A DNA stretch of 64,000 bases from a virus. The number at the start of each line of letters is the position of its first letter. Position 1 is the first letter of the stretch. Shown in pieces: positions 50,947 to 56,854 of this stretch. A program made the translations under genes and the position numbers. The stretch lies in the IMG/VR virus record IMGVR_UViG_3300040815_002027; one strand, written 5' to 3'. The notes beneath the pieces were generated by a model. That model was given only the letters and a program-made list of their open reading frames with translations, was not told the DNA's origin and made no database searches.

Positions 50947-52004
50947 ATGTCACAAATTGGATTTGGATCTAACAACGGAGTTGGGAGAAAATTAATTACA
51001 TTGAACATTAAAGACTTGCCCCCTCTTTTTGAACTAAAGGAGAAGGTGGACGATTCCTGGCAAACTACGGATAAGACTAACGAGATCGCTGGTTATTTGC
51101 AAAACGTACAAGTTTTAACCAAAACTAGTGATAAGTATGGAGATAAAAAGCAGGTAGTTTTAGATATGGATTTAGGAGATTTTCTTGCACGAGTTAGAGT
51201 TAACTTAAACTCTGTAGGTAAAGAGATTCTTAACAGAATGTCAAATTCTGATGACCTAAAAGGTTCTGTTTTAAAGATGAGAGTTTATGTTGATAAGAAG
51301 AACTATCCTAGTATTGTATGTTATAAGGATGATGAGATTATGCAATGGGGACTTACTACTGATCAAGTTAAATTAAATTTTGCACAAGAAGGTTTTTGGG
51401 TTTCTTTATATGAAACTAAAATTAGACCTCAATTTGATTCTACGGTAGTAACTGAAGAAGCTACTAGTGATTTAGATGACTTTATGAAAAATGTTAAACT
51501 GTGACAATAGGCAAAGCTTTTGAATCTCAAATTAAGAATAATTTGCCAGCAACAGAGCAAGGTATTAGGGTTTTAATTAACCCTATATACCACTCTGGTA
51601 GAAAGATAAATGCTGGCGATATTGCTTTATGGGCTAAATTAAGAGAAGAAGATGGCTCTACGACTATAGTACTTATACATCCAGATGATATAAAGATGTA
51701 CTCTTTAGATAGAAAAGTTAAAAAAGTAGATCCAGACCTTCCTTGCATTGTTCTGAAAAATAAAAAATAAGTTATGTTATATTCAATATACGCAAGTCTT
51801 TGCGGTAAAGTGTATCTAGAGGAGTATACGGACCACGTTAAAGCGTACTCCAGATACTCGCAGTTATCTTATAAATTAGAAAAACTATCAAAAAATAAGT
51901 TAGAGATTAGTGATCTCTCTCACGAACTTTCTGAGAATTTAGACAAGCACTGTACGTCTTCTTTAGGTTTTGTTCACTGTGAGAAATTTGAGGGAGATTT
52001 ATGA
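50947..52004 (+). CDS. Three hypothetical ORFs (50947-51504, 51501-51770, 51774-52004)
   Basis: + strand ORFs downstream of a TTTG-N20-TATATTTG promoter. Confidence 0.55.
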
Positions 52005-52717
52005 AAACAGTAGTTCTTGGAGATATACACGGTTTAGGTGTATGGGAGTTAATAGTAGCTAAAGAATCTCCTGATAGAGTTATTTTCTTAGGGGACTATT
52101 TCGACTCTACAGAAGTAAGTACTTCTCAGCAAATAAATAACTACAATAAAATAGTAGAGTTTAAAAAAAGTGGCGGAGCAGACATAATAATGCTAGTAGG
52201 AAATCACGACTTTCATTATCTTCCTTACATAGACACAGACGATATAAGTGGTTTTCAGAGTCACAGTGAAGATGTGTTAAAGGAACTTGTAGGAAGTACT
52301 TTAAACAATCTTACAATGTGCTATAAACAAGGTAACTACTTATTCACACATGCAGGAGTTTCAGATAATTTCTTACTAAAAGCACAAATAAATTATAGTA
52401 GAGACACAATAGATTCTTCTATTAATACTTTATTTTTGAGTAATCCTCATATATTTGATTTTGATGAAGATTGTGAAGATGCTTCTGGAGATAATAAGGA
52501 GCAGTCCTGTATATGGATACGTCCTAGAAGTCTTATGAATAATTCTCATACTATAAAAAAAGACTATATTCAAATTGTAGGGCATACTACACAAAAGAGA
52601 GTAGATGTAAAAGGAGTAGCTACAGATGGGAGGTTCTATTTTTTAGATACTTTAAGAACTTCTGGACAGTACGGTATTATTGAGTTTAACAATATTACTT
52701 TTAACTCGTATAAATAA
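52001..52717 (+). CDS. Calcineurin-like metallophosphoesterase
   Basis: GDIHG, GDYFD, GNHD, THAG, GHT. Confidence 0.92.
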   Translation: MKTVVLGDIHGLGVWELIVAKESPDRVIFLGDYFDSTEVSTSQQINNYNKIVEFKKSGGADIIMLVGNHDFHYLPYIDTDDISGFQSHSEDVLKELVGSTLNNLTMCYKQGNYLFTHAGVSDNFLLKAQINYSRDTIDSSINTLFLSNPHIFDFDEDCEDASGDNKEQSCIWIRPRSLMNNSHTIKKDYIQIVGHTTQKRVDVKGVATDGRFYFLDTLRTSGQYGIIEFNNITFNSYK

Positions 52718-52723
52718 TAGGTT

Positions 52724-54010
52724 ATGAACTACTATAAGATAAAAAGAAAACAAGTAAAGCGTGATGCTGAAGAATCTTATTACTACGGCACTTCTATAGT
52801 ATATAGGATGTATCCTAATAAGAAGCAGGAGGAGTGGTTAACTGAGATAGGCAACAAATGTCGGGGAGCTTATAACAAACTGGTAGAAGAGTTCTGCCAA
52901 AATCCAGATAAACCCAGGAACTTACCTGGAACTTCTTTAAAGGAGATTAATAGGCTTAGACATTATTTAAAAGAGTTTGACTGGTTAGATGATGTTCCTT
53001 CTATATTTTTGTATAATGTTTGTAATAATTTTATTAAAGGAGTTGATAACTTTTATACTCAAATTAAAAAGAATAAAAAGATATTAGAGAAAGATCCTTA
53101 TGCTACAGTTAGAAAAACAAGTCCCCCTAAAAAGAAAAAGTCTTATAGAGACCTGCATTTTGGGTCTAATAACTCAACTATAGAAAGAAGCACTGCTATT
53201 GACTATGACAACAATAGATATTATTGTTTTACGAAAACATTAAAAAGATTAGGTATTAGTGATTCTTTTAAGATAAAATGTCACAAGAAGTTTTATAATA
53301 GCAAAATAAAAAGAGTTTCTTTTATGAGGGACAGTTCTATGTGTTGGTATGTGTCTTTTGGTTTGGAGCTTCCGCAAATAGATAGGTATGATAAAATTTA
53401 TGTACCTAAAGATAATAGTTTAGGTATAGACTTGGGTGTAAAAACCGCAGCTACTACTTCTGATGGGGTAAAATTTCACCCTCCAGTAGAGCAGATAAAA
53501 AAGTTGGAGAAGAAGATAGATGTTTTAAATAAAGTTATTAGCAGGAAACAAAGATTAGATAAAAAGAATTACTGGAAGAGTAATAACTATAGTAGGGTGT
53601 TGGAGAAGAAGTACAGAATACAGAAAAAGATAAATAACATAAGAGCTAATTATAACGAGTATGTATCTCATGTTCTTACCAAAGGAGAGTATAATAAGAT
53701 TCAGATGGAAGATCTTAAGTTAAATTTTATGGTAGAAAAAAGGAAGAAGAAGTTTGGTATGAGTAGATCGGCAACTCGTTTAGGTTTGGGAAGTTTAACT
53801 AATAAGATAAAATCTAAATCTCAGGTAAGAGGTATAGAGTTTAATAAAATAAATCCTGCAAACACAACTAAGTATTGTAGTAATTGTGGACATATAGAGA
53901 ACAGTTTAACTCTTAATACAAGAGAGTGGACGTGTCCTAGATGTGGTGTTGACCACGATAGAGATATAAATGCTGCAAAAAATATTCAAAAAAGTTTGGA
54001 TATTAGATAA
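52724..54010 (+). CDS. tnpB: CRISPR-associated TnpB/Cas12f-like RuvC nuclease (428 aa)
   Basis: YRMYPNKKQ..CR..YN (OrfB HTH), RuvC-I GIDLGVK, RuvC-II MEDL, CSNC/CPRC Zn finger, RuvC-III DRDINAAKNI; array starts 240 nt downstream. Confidence 0.92.
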   Translation: MNYYKIKRKQVKRDAEESYYYGTSIVYRMYPNKKQEEWLTEIGNKCRGAYNKLVEEFCQNPDKPRNLPGTSLKEINRLRHYLKEFDWLDDVPSIFLYNVCNNFIKGVDNFYTQIKKNKKILEKDPYATVRKTSPPKKKKSYRDLHFGSNNSTIERSTAIDYDNNRYYCFTKTLKRLGISDSFKIKCHKKFYNSKIKRVSFMRDSSMCWYVSFGLELPQIDRYDKIYVPKDNSLGIDLGVKTAATTSDGVKFHPPVEQIKKLEKKIDVLNKVISRKQRLDKKNYWKSNNYSRVLEKKYRIQKKINNIRANYNEYVSHVLTKGEYNKIQMEDLKLNFMVEKRKKKFGMSRSATRLGLGSLTNKIKSKSQVRGIEFNKINPANTTKYCSNCGHIENSLTLNTREWTCPRCGVDHDRDINAAKNIQKSLDIR

Positions 54011-54026
54011 AAGGTTTGTAGATTTA
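53995..54026 (+). promoter_or_regulatory. Putative Bacteroidota-type promoter for guide RNA and array
   Basis: TTTG(53995)-N20-TAGATTTA(54019), one mismatch to TAnnTTTG. Confidence 0.5.
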
Positions 54027-54049
54027 CGATCTAAGTAAGTTCATTGAAA

Positions 54050-54250
54050 TAATCGCCCGTGTGTAGCGGGTTTAAAGGCTTGCAGATATAGCGTCAACCC
54101 CTTCTTTGCTACGCAAGTGGTAAAGTCGCTCAAAATCTTTCTTTAAAATGAAAGCGAGAGGCCGAGAGGACGCTAGGCGGCTAATGTCGAAAGACATAAC
54201 GTGTGAGAACACACGAAATATCTTTTAAATTGTAGCCTTTGTATAGTTAG
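54050..54250 (+). ncRNA. omegaRNA-like / tracrRNA-like scaffold with 3' anti-repeat
   Basis: Locally GC-enriched; stems TAGCGTC/GACGCTA, ATGTC-GAAA-GACAT, CGTGTG-AGAA-CACACG, AAAGGCT/AGCCTTT; 54216-54235 complementary to the repeat. Confidence 0.75.
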
Positions 54251-54921
54251 GGTGTATACCACCACAATTTGAAAGGTGTTTACAACTAATGTTAGACAAA
54301 AAAATAAGTATAGCTTGGTATATAGCACCACAGTTTGAAAGGTATTTACAACGGAAACTTAGGTTACCTACTATCTGCTGAAGGTGTATACCACCACAGT
54401 TTGAAAGGTATTTACAACGAAAACTTAGGTTACCTACTATCTGCTGAAGGTGTATACCACCACATTTTGAAAGGTATTTACAACCAAATGAAGAACGATG
54501 CACAATAAGATGTAGGTGTATAGCACCACAATTTGAAAGGTGTTTACAACAGATCTAAAAGAAGAAGCAGAAAAACTTTCAGTGTATACCACCACAATTT
54601 GAAAGGTATTTACAACTAGTACCTATAGTATCAAAGTTAAATCAGAGGTGTATACCACCACAGTTTGAAAGGTATTTACAACTTATGTTATGAAGGTAGT
54701 ACTCCTTATATTGGTGTATACCACCACAATTTGAAAGGTATTTACAAACGGTGTCTCTTTAGCATCATAATTTTAAAACTGTTTACAACATAGCGACATC
54801 AATGTCGTTACCATAGATGGCTGTATACCACCACAATTTTAAAACTGTTTACAACATAGCGACATCAATGTCGTTACCATAGATGGCTGTATACCACCAC
54901 AATTTTAAAACTGTTTACAAC
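54251..54921 (+). CRISPR. CRISPR array: 11 repeats of 36 nt (GGTGTATACCACCACAATTTGAAAGGTATTTACAAC), nine 30-nt spacers (7 distinct) and one collapsed spacer
   Basis: Repeats start at 54251, 54317, 54383, 54449, 54515, 54581, 54647, 54713, 54754 (degenerate), 54820, 54886; 66-nt period except R8-R9. Confidence 0.97.
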
Positions 54922-54938
54922 ATTAAAAAATCAAAGTT

Positions 54939-55334
54939 ATGAAAAGAATTAGTTTAGTTTTAGTATTACTGTTATCAGCATATCTTGGGTATTCACAAAA
55001 AGGCCAGGATATTGTCTCTTTAGAAGAGATCTTAGAAACTATAAACACTGGCTTGGAAGATCAAGCCTTTGAAAAATTACGGCAAGAAGCACACTCCAAA
55101 GAAGATAACGTTATCTTTAATGTAAAGTATCTATATCCTAATGTATGTTACAGACAACTAATAACTAAAGCAACAGGACAGAAGCTTTATATACAGGTAG
55201 CTTGTGATGCTATACACGCTAAGAATGGTCTTACTTTTAAAGAAGAAGAGGCGTATGAAAGATACCAGTTTCTTATAAAGAACAAACGTAAATTTGATAG
55301 ATTAGATAGAAGAATAGAAAGAATGCACAATTAA
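54939..55334 (+). CDS. Secreted hypothetical protein
   Basis: Signal peptide MKRISLVLVLLLSAYLGYSQ; starts 17 nt after the last repeat. Confidence 0.65.
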   Translation: MKRISLVLVLLLSAYLGYSQKGQDIVSLEEILETINTGLEDQAFEKLRQEAHSKEDNVIFNVKYLYPNVCYRQLITKATGQKLYIQVACDAIHAKNGLTFKEEEAYERYQFLIKNKRKFDRLDRRIERMHN

Positions 55335-55352
55335 CACTATGAAAAACTTTTT

Positions 55353-55380
55353 GGAGAGGTAACTACTGCCTCTCCTTTTT
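55353..55380 (+). terminator. Rho-independent terminator
   Basis: GGAGAGGTA-ACTAC-TGCCTCTCC followed by T5. Confidence 0.8.
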
Positions 55381-55525
55381 AAATTTTAACTATGAAGATA
55401 CAAACATTCACAAATGCAAATACCTTTTATCTTATTCCAACCTTCTATATTAAGGAGGATTGTGATTATTCTTTAAACTTTACCTGGCTTCATTTTGGAG
55501 TATGTGTAGAAATAATAAAATGTAA

Positions 55526-55762
55526 ATGACACCAAAAGAAAAAGCAGAAGACCTTGTTAACCAATTCAGAATGATATTAATGGCTGAAGATACTGACTGT
55601 GGTAATGAAATACTTTGCACTTCGATAGCAATTAAGAATGCGTTAATATGTGCAGATGAAGTCTTGATGCGAGTGCCTCATAAAGACGTAGCTAATTGGA
55701 TTGCAGATGATTTGGCTGTTAAATATTGGATTGATGTAAAAATGGAATTAAGACAAATGTAA
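55526..55762 (+). CDS. Small phage protein (MTPKEKA...YW..VK family)
   Basis: ORF; paralogous remnant directly downstream. Confidence 0.65.
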   Translation: MTPKEKAEDLVNQFRMILMAEDTDCGNEILCTSIAIKNALICADEVLMRVPHKDVANWIADDLAVKYWIDVKMELRQM

Positions 55763-55975
55763 TTATAAGAAAAAGCAAAAGAATTAATTGTAAGTATTAG
55801 TCACGATTCGTTTGTAGGAGCATCTTTGAACGCTTCACAAGTTAAGCACATTGTATTTATACATTTAAATAATATGATTGCTGAACTACAGAGTGTTGAG
55901 AATATTTATGAACTTGATATGAAGGGTACTATATCTTATTGGATGAGAGTTAAGGGAGAAGTAATAAAACTATAA
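55757..55975 (+). pseudogene. Decayed paralog of the upstream MTPKEKA gene
   Basis: ATG TAA TTA TAA GAA AAA GCA AAA GAA..., then open to YWMRVKGEVIKL. Confidence 0.5.
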
Positions 55976-55991
55976 CCTAAATTACAAATAT

Positions 55992-56854
55992 ATGCTAGAA
56001 TCTATACTTGAAAATTACTATGAAGAAGAGTTCTTAAAAGCTGATGGATTTGATGATGCTATTATAGGAGTAGAAGAAAACTCTATGAGACTTATCTATT
56101 CAGTTAAAAAGTGTTTAGAGATCTTACAGACTGATATGGATGAGATAGATGCTATGGAGTACTTTACTTATAATGTAAGTGGAGCTTATATGGGAGAAAA
56201 GACTCCTATCTGGTGTTGTGATTTATTTGAAGATTAACTATAGACTATGAAAAAATTAATAAAAGAGGTACTTAGTAGTTTTGACTTTGAAAAAGTACAT
56301 AAGACTATGACATTTTTAAATTGGACTTGGTATTTTAAAGAAGTACCAAATTTACTTAAGTTGAAAAGTACAGCACAAGAATTGTTAGAAGAGGCTTGTG
56401 GTAGGTGTTTAGAAAGTAAAAAAACAAGTCGTGACATACCTTATATTATTATGACAGGTGGGTTTAGAGTAGAGGCATACCCTAACAAAAAGAGAACAAA
56501 GATTAAAAAGTTAAAATTAGACTTTATATTAACTACATCTTTTGATTATAGATGATGAATATTTAATAAAATTTCGACATAACTTATATTAAGCAAAAAA
56601 TTATGAGTAAAGACAAAAACATTGTGTTGGCATTTAATATTATCAATGCAGTTAGGGATAATAATTGGGAGGAAATGTTGAAATTATTTCCAGAGGGTGT
56701 AGAGCATAGAACGTATAAATACGATAGCATAGAATGTTTTACAGATTGGGAACATTACCAAGATTATGCAAGATATGTAGCACCTGCACGAGATATAATG
56801 AAAGAAAAATGTCTGGACAAAGCACTTGAGTGTCTTAATGTGTATGATAAGTAA
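55992..56854 (+). CDS. Three small hypothetical ORFs (55992-56237 with ADGFDDAIIG motif, 56247-56555, 56603-56854)
   Basis: + strand ORFs with A-rich leaders. Confidence 0.6.

What the first reader, a model, noticed from the sequence alone, without database searches (positions are those of the whole stretch)
54251..54748. Repeat resembles Bacteroidota type VI-B direct repeats, suggesting a captured host array and spacer acquisition in trans
Seen: 36-nt repeat, strictly 30-nt spacers, 3' half TTTGAAAGGTATTTACAAC, and only weak self-pairing (GGTGTA/TACAAC, ATACC/GGTAT). Established (recalled, needs verification): Cas13b repeats are 36 nt, end in ...TTTG(A/G)AGGGTA..ACAAC-like sequences and have 30-nt spacers; in Flavobacterium the II-C Cas1-Cas2 adds spacers to a VI-B array in trans. 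Inference: the TnpB co-opted a VI-B/II-C-type array, replaced the repeat hairpin with anti-repeat pairing, and depends on host Cas1-Cas2. Alternatively the RNAs could act as decoys for host Cas13b.
Basis: partly seen in the sequence, partly recalled or inferred. Interest (0 to 1): 0.7.

Follow-up and report, generated by a model that had tools for sequence, protein, structure and literature searches.

The report
Phage TnpB array with Cas13b-type repeats
A large Bacteroidota phage carries a miniature DNA-cutting TnpB nuclease whose CRISPR array uses the same repeat family as the RNA-cutting Cas13b and Cas9 (II-C) systems of Bacteroidota, and several unrelated phage TnpB/Cas12f nucleases use that family too, which suggests small nucleases became CRISPR effectors by docking onto an existing array type.

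Summary
There are eight 36-nt repeats with seven 30-nt spacers at 54251-54748, plus a degenerate tail to 54921.

The resemblance to type VI-B is real and measurable:
- The 3' 19 nt are identical to repeats that lie directly beside cas13b in two genomes.
- Over all 36 nt, the phage repeat matches seven unbiased Cas13b-linked repeats at 25.7/36. VI-B repeats match each other at 26.7/36, and the shuffled null is 11.0.
- Bacteroidota II-C repeats (46-49 nt, also with 30-nt spacers) share both ends.

The 'captured host VI-B array' reading is only partly right:
- The closest genomic repeat (31/36) belongs to rpoE-dCas12f loci of Parapedobacter, not to Cas13b.
- All eight examined members of this TnpB clade, down to about 29% identity, carry the same array type behind a conserved scaffold whose anti-repeat covaries with the repeat. 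The association is therefore old, and the TnpB uses the array.
- At least three further phage TnpB/Cas12f lineages carry the same repeat family.

Best reading: Bacteroidota have a shared II-C/VI-B-type array format that TnpB lineages adopted repeatedly. Spacer supply by a host II-C Cas1-Cas2 is plausible but untested, and this phage's own array looks static. A Cas13b-decoy role is disfavoured. The scan has already noted VI-B-like arrays beside Cas12f/TnpB in other phages.

The parts
52724..54010 (+). TnpB-family RNA-guided nuclease gene (P0001, 428 aa), the effector that uses the array
   Evidence: NCBIfam guided_TnpB E 3.5e-57 (194.5 bits, cut-off 100); Pfam Cas12f1-like_TNB, OrfB_IS605 and HTH_OrfB_IS605. 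Aligns to ISDra2 TnpB 8h1j/8bf8 with the RuvC D/E/D and CxxC...CxxC positions present. D236, E329, D412 and D414 are invariant in 13 clade members.
54011..54215 (+). Structured scaffold RNA (omegaRNA/tracrRNA-like), ending in a conserved hairpin with a GAGAAC loop at 54200-54215
   Evidence: Conserved across six lineages, with covarying stems (alignment A1). Hairpin located.
54216..54246 (+). Anti-repeat. The first 16 nt pair without a gap to repeat nt 16-31, and the predicted duplex extends to repeat nt 2
   Evidence: 16/16 pairs. Duplex -19.7 kcal/mol. Repeat position 29 pairs as T-A here, G-C in L043/L058 and A-T in L059.
54251..54748 (+). CRISPR array: eight 36-nt repeats and seven 30-nt spacers, of the II-C/VI-B repeat family
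   Evidence: Comparison with VI-B, II-C and class 1 repeats.
54749..54921 (+). Degenerate distal end of the array: partial repeat 54764-54789, then variant repeats 54820-54855 and 54886-54921 separated by a duplicated 30-nt spacer
   Evidence: Cas13b arrays (L026) and the huge-phage array (L262) also have degenerate repeats at the effector-distal end.

Best explanation
The array stores the guides of a phage-borne miniature type V system. That system comprises a nuclease-competent TnpB-family protein, a roughly 240-nt scaffold RNA ending in an anti-repeat, and the array, all on the + strand.

The repeat belongs to a repeat family that is common currency among class 2 systems of Bacteroidota. 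Members are 36 nt long with 30-nt spacers, a GTTGT-like 5' end, a U-rich centre and a GGTA...ACAAC 3' end. I found the family next to:
- Cas13b (type VI-B);
- Cas9-Cas1-Cas2 of type II-C, as a form about 11 nt longer;
- nuclease-dead Cas12f-sigma factor loci;
- at least four separate phage TnpB/Cas12f lineages.

In this lineage the link is old. It goes back to the base of a clade of phage TnpBs that sits among ordinary array-less TnpBs. The most likely history is that a TnpB came to sit upstream of an array of this pre-existing type, in the position cas13b holds in VI-B loci. Its omegaRNA tail already ended in a similar GGTAGTT...AC sequence. The terminal omegaRNA hairpin was then split into an anti-repeat (scaffold) and a repeat (array).

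Working mechanism (inferred): transcription runs from the TnpB side through the scaffold and array. The anti-repeat pairs with repeat nt about 16-31. The 30 nt 3' of each repeat guide DNA cleavage by the RuvC site.

Spacers of exactly 30 nt were most likely installed by a II-C-type Cas1-Cas2 supplied in trans (inferred). In this particular phage the array now looks static.
For: Shared family:
- A scan of one genome for each of 185,579 species for the 3' 19-mer found five arrays. Two are beside cas13b (NF038190 E 7e-236 and 4e-200). Two are beside 364-aa truncated Cas12f next to an ECF sigma factor (system described in PMC13472631). One is an orphan.
- Identity to seven unbiased Cas13b-linked repeats is 25.7/36 (23-29). 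VI-B to VI-B is 26.7/36, and shuffles give 11.0 +/- 2.3, maximum 21.
- For eleven TnpB/Cas12f-linked repeats against VI-B the mean is 25.4, so the two sets are intermixed.
- II-C repeats share 14-18 of the last 22 nt and have 30-nt spacers. Class 1 repeats of the same bacterial family score 16.4.

The TnpB uses the array:
- 8 of 8 examined clade members have a scaffold plus a 36/30 array.
- The scaffold is conserved with covarying stems.
- The anti-repeat covaries with the repeat.
- The catalytic residues are intact.

Old and repeated association:
- The clade (L169 plus P0001-P0013) is separated from 31 ordinary TnpBs with SH-aLRT 100.
- Among 120 further TnpB loci fetched, L169 was the only one with such an array behind its TnpB.
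- L252p, L263p and L257p are separate lineages with the same repeat family.

Trans acquisition:
- Published for VI-B (PMC8092290).
- No cas1, cas2, cas9 or cas13b was found in the window.
- No Cas1 was found in a complete 362.6-kb phage that carries at least 16 such repeats.
Against: - No host is known, and no Cas1-Cas2 activity on this array is shown.
- This array has six repeat variants in eight copies, one near-duplicate spacer pair and a duplicated tail. That pattern fits duplication and decay rather than ongoing integrase activity.
- Related phage contigs from different samples carry identical spacers.
- No protospacer was found, so targeting is unproven.
- Direction of transfer between VI-B, II-C and type V arrays cannot be read from 36-nt sequences.
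- The omegaRNA tails of ordinary relatives end in a sequence resembling the repeat's last 10-12 nt. Part of the resemblance could therefore be inherited from the omegaRNA.
- The tree is a quick search and L169 sits on a long branch.
Confidence: 0.6

Rival explanations
1. De novo origin. The array arose by serial duplication of the 3' end of the TnpB's own omegaRNA plus its guide. The likeness to VI-B repeats is then convergence, or a constraint imposed by the protein.
For: - In 18 of 37 ordinary phage TnpB relatives, a hairpin followed by (G)GTAGTT/GTAGTC lies at the predicted omegaRNA end, like the repeat's guide-proximal 10-12 nt.
- L169 keeps an omegaRNA-like tail whose last 13 nt equal the end of its own repeat, followed by 30 nt and then the array.
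- The de novo route is one of two left open in PMC10691335.
Against: - It does not explain the GTTGT 5' end, the U-rich TTTGAAA centre, the exact 36/30 geometry, or the 19-20 nt identity with cas13b-adjacent repeats.
- It does not explain why TnpB lineages that are closer to array-less TnpBs than to each other carry the same repeat family.
Confidence: 0.15
2. Vertical inheritance. This is simply the repeat type of Bacteroidota miniature type V (Cas12f/V-U) systems, inherited together with the nuclease. Its likeness to VI-B is a property of the whole family and implies no capture in this lineage.
For: - V-U3-like (L257, dCas12f) and V-U4-like (L252, L263) effectors carry the same repeat family.
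- An earlier follow-up of this scan reached this conclusion for a phage Cas12f (e1-5341859; not verified by me).
Against: - The P0001 clade is nested among array-less TnpBs with ordinary omegaRNAs.
- L252p scores 154-178 bits against array-less TnpBs but 81-92 bits against the P0001 clade. dCas12f and P0001 are not BLAST-similar.
Confidence: 0.15
3. Host Cas13b hijack or decoy. The phage transcripts load into, or titrate, the host's Cas13b, either as RNA anti-CRISPRs or to turn Cas13b on competitors.
For: - The repeat is within the VI-B identity range and reads in the crRNA orientation on the transcribed strand (orientation).
- Relatives L043 and L169 keep the full closed VI-B-type hairpin.
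- RNA anti-CRISPRs that mimic repeats are known (PMC10651486).
Against: - The anti-repeat covaries with the repeat, so the array is coupled to the TnpB scaffold.
- All seven Cas13b-linked repeats keep the pair between nt 2 and nt 35 (six U-A, one compensated G-C). It is G-A here and in four other TnpB/dCas12f repeats, and those repeats do not fold closed.
- An effector gene was adjacent to every TnpB/Cas12f-linked array examined.
- The published survey found viral solitary repeats for all CRISPR types except type VI.
Confidence: 0.08
4. Recent capture of the present host's VI-B array by this phage.
For: The 3' 19 nt are identical to two Cas13b arrays.
Against: - No genome among the 185,579 species scanned carries a closer full-length repeat than 31/36, and that one is not VI-B.
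- TnpB relatives at 59%, 42-46% and about 29% identity already have the same scaffold-array architecture.
- The 5' half matches VI-B repeats at only 7-10 of 17 positions.
Confidence: 0.05

Closest known systems
Type VI-B (Cas13b) CRISPR arrays of Bacteroidota (Smargon et al., bioRxiv 10.1101/092577; Hoikkala et al. 2021, PMC8092290)
   Same: 36-nt repeat, 30-nt spacers, U-rich centre and a GGTA...ACAAC 3' end. The 3' 19 nt are identical to two cas13b-adjacent arrays. The repeat reads the same way on the effector's coding strand, the array lies downstream of the effector, and the degenerate repeats are at the distal end. No cas1/cas2 in the locus.
   Different: No cas13b here (not found in the window). 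The effector is a DNA-targeting TnpB-family protein. The repeat starts GGTG, so the nt 2-35 pair that every Cas13b repeat keeps is broken. The repeat pairs with an anti-repeat in a scaffold RNA. For a type V effector the guide is expected 3' of the repeat, not 5' as in Cas13b crRNA.
TranC / V-U-type miniature type V systems derived from TnpB (LaTranC, PDB 9jfo; Altae-Tran et al. 2023, PMC10691335; bioRxiv 10.64898/2026.03.27.714800)
   Same: A TnpB-sized effector with intact RuvC, a short array downstream without adaptation genes, and a tracrRNA-like scaffold that looks like a split omegaRNA. Some described members are phage-borne.
   Different: I could not place P0001 in a named clade. Sequence matches are weak (LaTranC E 5e-15 over the C-terminal third only). 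I found no report that such arrays share the VI-B/II-C repeat family. Published TranC repeat lengths are 32-38 nt.
rpoE-dCas12f RNA-guided transcription loci (Hoffmann et al. 2026, PMC13472631)
   Same: The closest repeat in any genome scanned (31/36, with the same GGTG start) lies in the Parapedobacter loci of this type, which have several discontinuous, polymorphic 36/30 arrays.
   Different: That effector is a C-terminally truncated, nuclease-dead Cas12f. It is not BLAST-similar to P0001, is chromosomal, and is paired with a sigma factor.
Bacteroidota type II-C arrays
   Same: 30-nt spacers. The two repeat ends are shared: 14-18 of the last 22 nt, plus a G.TGT start. II-C is also the known in-trans supplier of spacers to VI-B arrays.
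   Different: The repeat is 46-49 nt, the locus has cas9-cas1-cas2, and the crRNA is read from the opposite strand.
RNA anti-CRISPRs (Racrs) and viral mini-arrays (PMC10651486)
   Same: Phage-encoded copies of host-type CRISPR repeats.
   Different: Racrs are solitary repeats without an effector. Here there is a full array with unique spacers, an adjacent effector and a matching anti-repeat.

Membership tests
Type VI-B CRISPR array | 36-nt direct repeat with 30-nt spacers | tested here: met
   Period 66, 36 + 30.
Type VI-B CRISPR array | Repeat sequence within the range of Cas13b-linked repeats | tested here: met
   25.7/36 (23-29) against seven cas13b-adjacent repeats. VI-B to VI-B is 26.7/36 (22-32), and the null is 11.0 +/- 2.3.
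Type VI-B CRISPR array | Complementary 5'-GUUG / CAAC-3' ends closing a hairpin | tested here: not met
   The repeat starts GGUG, the nt 2-35 pair is G-A, and the MFE fold does not close the ends. All seven Cas13b repeats close and keep the pair.
Type VI-B CRISPR array | cas13b next to the array or in the genome | tested here: not met
   tblastn of the ORFs of a cas13b locus against the 64-kb window gave no hit. The rest of the phage and the host could not be searched.
TnpB-derived type V system (TranC / V-U-like) | TnpB/Cas12-family effector with an intact RuvC triad and zinc finger | tested here: met
TnpB-derived type V system (TranC / V-U-like) | Array downstream of the effector on the same strand, conserved in relatives | tested here: met
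   8 of 8 examined clade members.
TnpB-derived type V system (TranC / V-U-like) | Scaffold/tracrRNA with an anti-repeat complementary to the repeat | tested here: met
   16/16 pairs in the window, and compensatory changes at repeat position 29 across lineages. The conserved core is only 7 bp in L043 and L058.
TnpB-derived type V system (TranC / V-U-like) | Guide-dependent DNA cleavage with a PAM/TAM | not testable with these tools
   No protospacer was found from which to read a flanking motif.
Type II-C array | Repeat of about 47 nt beside cas9-cas1-cas2 | tested here: not met
   The repeat is 36 nt, and no cas9/cas1/cas2 was found in the window. II-C repeats sampled here are 46-49 nt.
RNA anti-CRISPR (Racr / solitary repeat unit) | Solitary repeat without spacers or an effector | tested here: not met
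   Eight to eleven repeats with unique spacers directly behind an effector gene.

The most novel reading that the evidence does not exclude
Bacteroidota have one interchangeable array format, written by II-C Cas1-Cas2, that any guide-using effector can dock onto. Phage-borne TnpBs became CRISPR effectors several times independently by landing upstream of such arrays. They were helped by a chance likeness between their omegaRNA tail and the repeat end. These phages still rely on the host's integrase to arm their own nuclease. That would be direct evidence for the 'array capture' route to type V CRISPR, which the literature leaves open, and an example of a virus exploiting host adaptation machinery.
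Probability: 0.3. Interest if true: 0.8.

Novelty: new variant of a known kind. Interest (0 to 1): 0.55.

Why it matters
How TnpB nucleases acquired CRISPR arrays is an open question. The two options are duplication of their own omegaRNA and insertion next to an existing array (PMC10691335). Here a TnpB clade nested among array-less relatives carries repeats that cannot be told apart from Cas13b repeats, and at least three other TnpB/Cas12f lineages do the same. That pattern is what the second route predicts.

It also extends array sharing between CRISPR types, known so far for II-C and VI-B in Flavobacterium, to phage-borne DNA-targeting nucleases and to the dCas12f-sigma transcription systems.

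It gives concrete constructs for testing whether a host integrase can load a viral array.

In practice, classifying an array's subtype from its repeat sequence will mislabel these loci as VI-B.

Tried and rejected
- megablast of 52000-56000 against the phage collection: no match.
- Exact scans for the phage-specific repeat core: no match in IMG/VR or in the metagenome contigs.
- The search for related loci with P0001 in IMG/VR: no relative confirmed.
- The search for related loci with the clade alignment in the metagenome contigs: only ordinary TnpBs at 25-39% identity, plus L169.
- Rfam: only sub-threshold chance matches.
- Protospacer searches: the array against 50,697 phage records gave only marginal partial hits, and there was none in the window or among all fetched loci. 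The targets remain unknown.
- Spacer turnover could not be assessed. The 95%-identical relative's contig ends in its first repeat. The P0011 and P0008 contigs from different samples are near-identical and carry the same spacers.
- P0001 was not found in the five genomes that carry the 19-mer arrays.
- My recalled PspCas13b repeat string was not found in the paper library, and PMC5432119 is not held. I used the preprint and my own cas13b-adjacent sample instead.
- The semi-global comparison with whole II-C repeats is only moderately above its shuffled null (27.5 against 20.0 +/- 4.5). I therefore rely on the shared ends.
- The sigma-70 promoter scan was not enriched over shuffles.
- The careful tree search did not finish, so the tree cited is the quick one.

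Full report
**Observation**

The + strand of 54251-54748 holds eight copies of a 36-nt repeat at an exact 66-nt period, so there are seven 30-nt spacers. The array runs further than the finding says:
- a 26-nt partial repeat at 54764-54789;
- two variant repeats at 54820-54855 and 54886-54921, which share a duplicated spacer.

The eight repeats come in six variants, and spacers 2 and 3 differ at one base. Self-pairing is weak: the MFE is -5.5 kcal/mol and the ends stay open.

**Surroundings**

Directly upstream on the same strand lies a 428-aa TnpB-family gene (52724-54010):
- It matches NCBIfam guided_TnpB at 3.5e-57.
- It aligns to ISDra2 TnpB with the RuvC and zinc-finger positions present.
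- These residues are invariant in 13 relatives.

Between the gene and the array lie 240 nt of non-coding sequence. No whole genome is held for the window. Earlier notes of the scan describe it as a large Bacteroidota phage. The ORFs of II-C and VI-B loci, including cas1, cas2, cas9 and cas13b, find nothing in the 64 kb.

**Who else has this repeat**

I scanned one genome for each of 185,579 species for the 3' 19-mer, with one position free. The scan gave 35 places, five of them arrays:
- Two arrays lie directly beside cas13b. One is in a Saprospiraceae MAG and one in Niabella, with NF038190 E-values down to 7e-236.
- Two are in Parapedobacter deserti and P. luteus. There the repeat is 31/36 identical to the phage repeat and shares its unusual GGTG start. 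These arrays follow a 364-aa protein that matches the PADLOC Cas12f/Cas12u3 models at 5e-53 but stops after RuvC-II. In the P. luteus locus (L016) an ECF sigma factor gene lies immediately upstream of it. This is the rpoE-dCas12f system of Hoffmann et al. 2026, who mention a Sphingobacterium locus with discontinuous arrays (PMC13472631). Neither Parapedobacter genome has Cas13b.
- The fifth is an orphan array in a Tenacibaculum defence island.

**Is it a VI-B repeat?**

To avoid circularity I collected cas13b loci by protein family. I then extracted their arrays with a repeat finder that does not know the phage repeat. This gave seven 36-nt repeats.

| Comparison | Identity |
|---|---|
| Phage repeat vs the seven VI-B repeats | 25.7/36 (23-29) |
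| VI-B vs VI-B | 26.7/36 (22-32) |
| Shuffled VI-B repeats | 11.0 +/- 2.3, max 21 of 5000 |
| Class 1 repeats, same bacterial family | 16.4 |
| Eleven TnpB/Cas12f-linked repeats vs VI-B | 25.4 |
| TnpB/Cas12f-linked repeats among themselves | 27.0 |

The two sets are intermixed. II-C arrays of the same family have 46-49-nt repeats and 30-nt spacers. They share the G.TGT start and 14-18 of the last 22 nt with the phage repeat. This fits the report that II-C and VI-B repeats share their leader-distal motif (PMC8092290).

The published description of VI-B repeats also fits: 36 nt, a poly-U loop, GUUG/CAAC ends, and a crRNA made of a 30-nt 5' spacer plus a 36-nt 3' repeat. There is one exception. 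All seven Cas13b repeats keep the pair between nt 2 and nt 35 (six U-A and one compensated G-C) and fold closed. The phage repeat, four other TnpB/dCas12f-linked repeats and their folds do not.

**The array belongs to the TnpB**

P0001 has a tight set of relatives (95, 76, 59 and 40-46% identity). After them, scores drop to ordinary TnpBs. Every member whose contig I could read has 190-240 nt of scaffold followed by a 36/30 array of this repeat family (P0002, P0004, P0007, P0008, P0010, P0011). So does L169, a more distant relative at about 29% identity.

- The scaffolds align, and two hairpins keep their structure through compensatory changes.
- Immediately after the conserved GAGAAC-loop hairpin comes the anti-repeat.
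- In the window, 16 of 16 positions pair with repeat nt 16-31. The predicted duplex reaches repeat nt 2 at -19.7 kcal/mol.
- Across lineages, repeat position 29 pairs as T-A, G-C or A-T.
- The conserved core is about 7 bp. L043 and L058 have little more than that.

This coupling argues against the array being only a decoy for a host Cas13b.

**One origin in this clade, several origins overall**

- A quick maximum-likelihood tree puts L169 plus P0001-P0013 on one side of a branch with SH-aLRT 100. The other side holds 31 ordinary TnpBs. L169 is a long branch.
- Ordinary relatives have about 76 nt or less between the stop codon and the next gene, and no array.
- Among 120 further TnpB loci fetched, L169 was the only one with such an array downstream.
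- A scan of IMG/VR for the generalised 3' motif found three more arrays. Each is behind a TnpB/Cas12f-type gene. Two of the genes are Cas12u4-like (L252, L263). One is a full-length Cas12u3-like gene in a complete 362.6-kb phage (L257/L262).
- By BLAST, L252p is closer to array-less TnpBs (154-178 bits) than to the P0001 clade (81-92 bits). L257p groups with dCas12f.

The same repeat family therefore serves at least four TnpB/Cas12 lineages.

**Capture or de novo?**

Altae-Tran et al. leave both routes open (PMC10691335).

For de novo origin:
- The omegaRNA ends of ordinary relatives are a hairpin followed by GGTAGTTCA(C). That resembles the repeat's last 10-12 nt.
- L169 keeps such a tail. 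It is identical over 13 nt to the end of its own repeat, and it precedes a 30-nt guide and then the array.

For capture:
- The GTTGT start.
- The U-rich centre.
- The exact 36/30 geometry.
- The 19-20 nt identity with Cas13b repeats.
- The recurrence in separate lineages.

I favour capture of a pre-existing array type, made easy by the pre-existing likeness of the omegaRNA tail. The terminal omegaRNA hairpin was then split into anti-repeat and repeat, as in the TranC model (LaTranC is a weak PDB match; model summarised). The locus layout is the same as in VI-B loci: effector, then array on the same strand, with degenerate repeats at the far end. Exchanging cas13b for tnpB plus scaffold would be enough to produce it. 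This step is inference.

**Spacer acquisition in trans**

For:
- In-trans loading of VI-B by II-C Cas1 is shown in F. columnare.
- Spacers are 29-31 nt in all lineages.
- The repeat ends shared with II-C are retained.
- There are no adaptation genes in the window.
- There is no Cas1 in a complete 362.6-kb phage with at least 16 homogeneous repeats.

Against, for this phage:
- The repeats are polymorphic.
- One spacer pair is a near-duplicate, and the tail is duplicated.
- No turnover could be observed.

I rate trans acquisition as the likely source of the spacers historically, at about 0.4-0.5. It is untested.

**Verdict**

The observation and the recalled resemblance are right. The array is a member of the II-C/VI-B repeat family by sequence and geometry. 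It fails the VI-B tests for a closed hairpin and for cas13b. Functionally it belongs to a TnpB-derived type V system.

The new element is that this repeat family is shared by Cas13b, II-C, dCas12f-sigma and several phage TnpB lineages. Earlier follow-ups of this scan saw VI-B-like arrays beside Cas12f/TnpB in other phages. One of them concluded that the repeat is inherited with the nuclease, and my lineage comparison speaks against that as a general rule.

Noticed in passing
L005:333-1427 and L016:4985-6079 (Parapedobacter deserti / P. luteus), with arrays across L005:2024-5004 and L016:1211-4746: rpoE-dCas12f loci with many discontinuous, polymorphic 36/30 arrays. The 364-aa protein ends right after RuvC-II and is 95% identical between the two species. 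P. luteus has a II-C cas9-cas1 locus with a 47-nt repeat (L057), whereas no Cas1, Cas9 or Cas13b was found in P. deserti.
   Followed up: partly
L027:58-803 and L027:6505-7116 (Tenacibaculum agarivorans): Two orphan 36/30 arrays of the same repeat family flank a CBASS operon and a 1085-aa protein with no family match. TIR and caspase-like genes lie next door. No Cas13b, Cas9 or Cas1 was found in that genome.
   Followed up: partly
L169:1922-2706: The scaffold ends in an omegaRNA-like tail identical over its last 13 nt to the repeat end. It is followed by 30 nt and then eight homogeneous repeats. This looks like an intermediate that encodes both a single-guide RNA and an array.
   Followed up: partly
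L220:1040-1272: A 36/30 repeat array whose 5' 24 nt resemble the window's repeat lies inside a 167-aa ORF on the opposite strand, next to an ordinary TnpB. It recalls the 'translated arrays' that the scan noted in other lake phages.
   Followed up: no
L071 (G452): A cas13b-adjacent repeat starts GGTG and ends CACC. This is a compensatory double change that keeps the terminal stem. The TnpB-linked GGTG repeats lack the compensating change.
   Followed up: yes
L257:11954-13480 with arrays L257:13734-14032 and L262:9-836 (complete 362.6-kb phage): A huge phage with terminal repeats carries a full-length Cas12u3/Cas12f-like gene and at least 16 repeats of this family, but no Cas1 or Cas13b.
   Followed up: partly
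window 54200-54229: The conserved GAGAAC-loop hairpin followed by a U-rich stretch scores as an intrinsic-terminator-like site. Some scaffold transcripts may therefore end inside the anti-repeat.
   Followed up: no
window 54225-54503 (- strand): The 92-aa ORF listed here overlaps the array and is almost certainly spurious.
   Followed up: no
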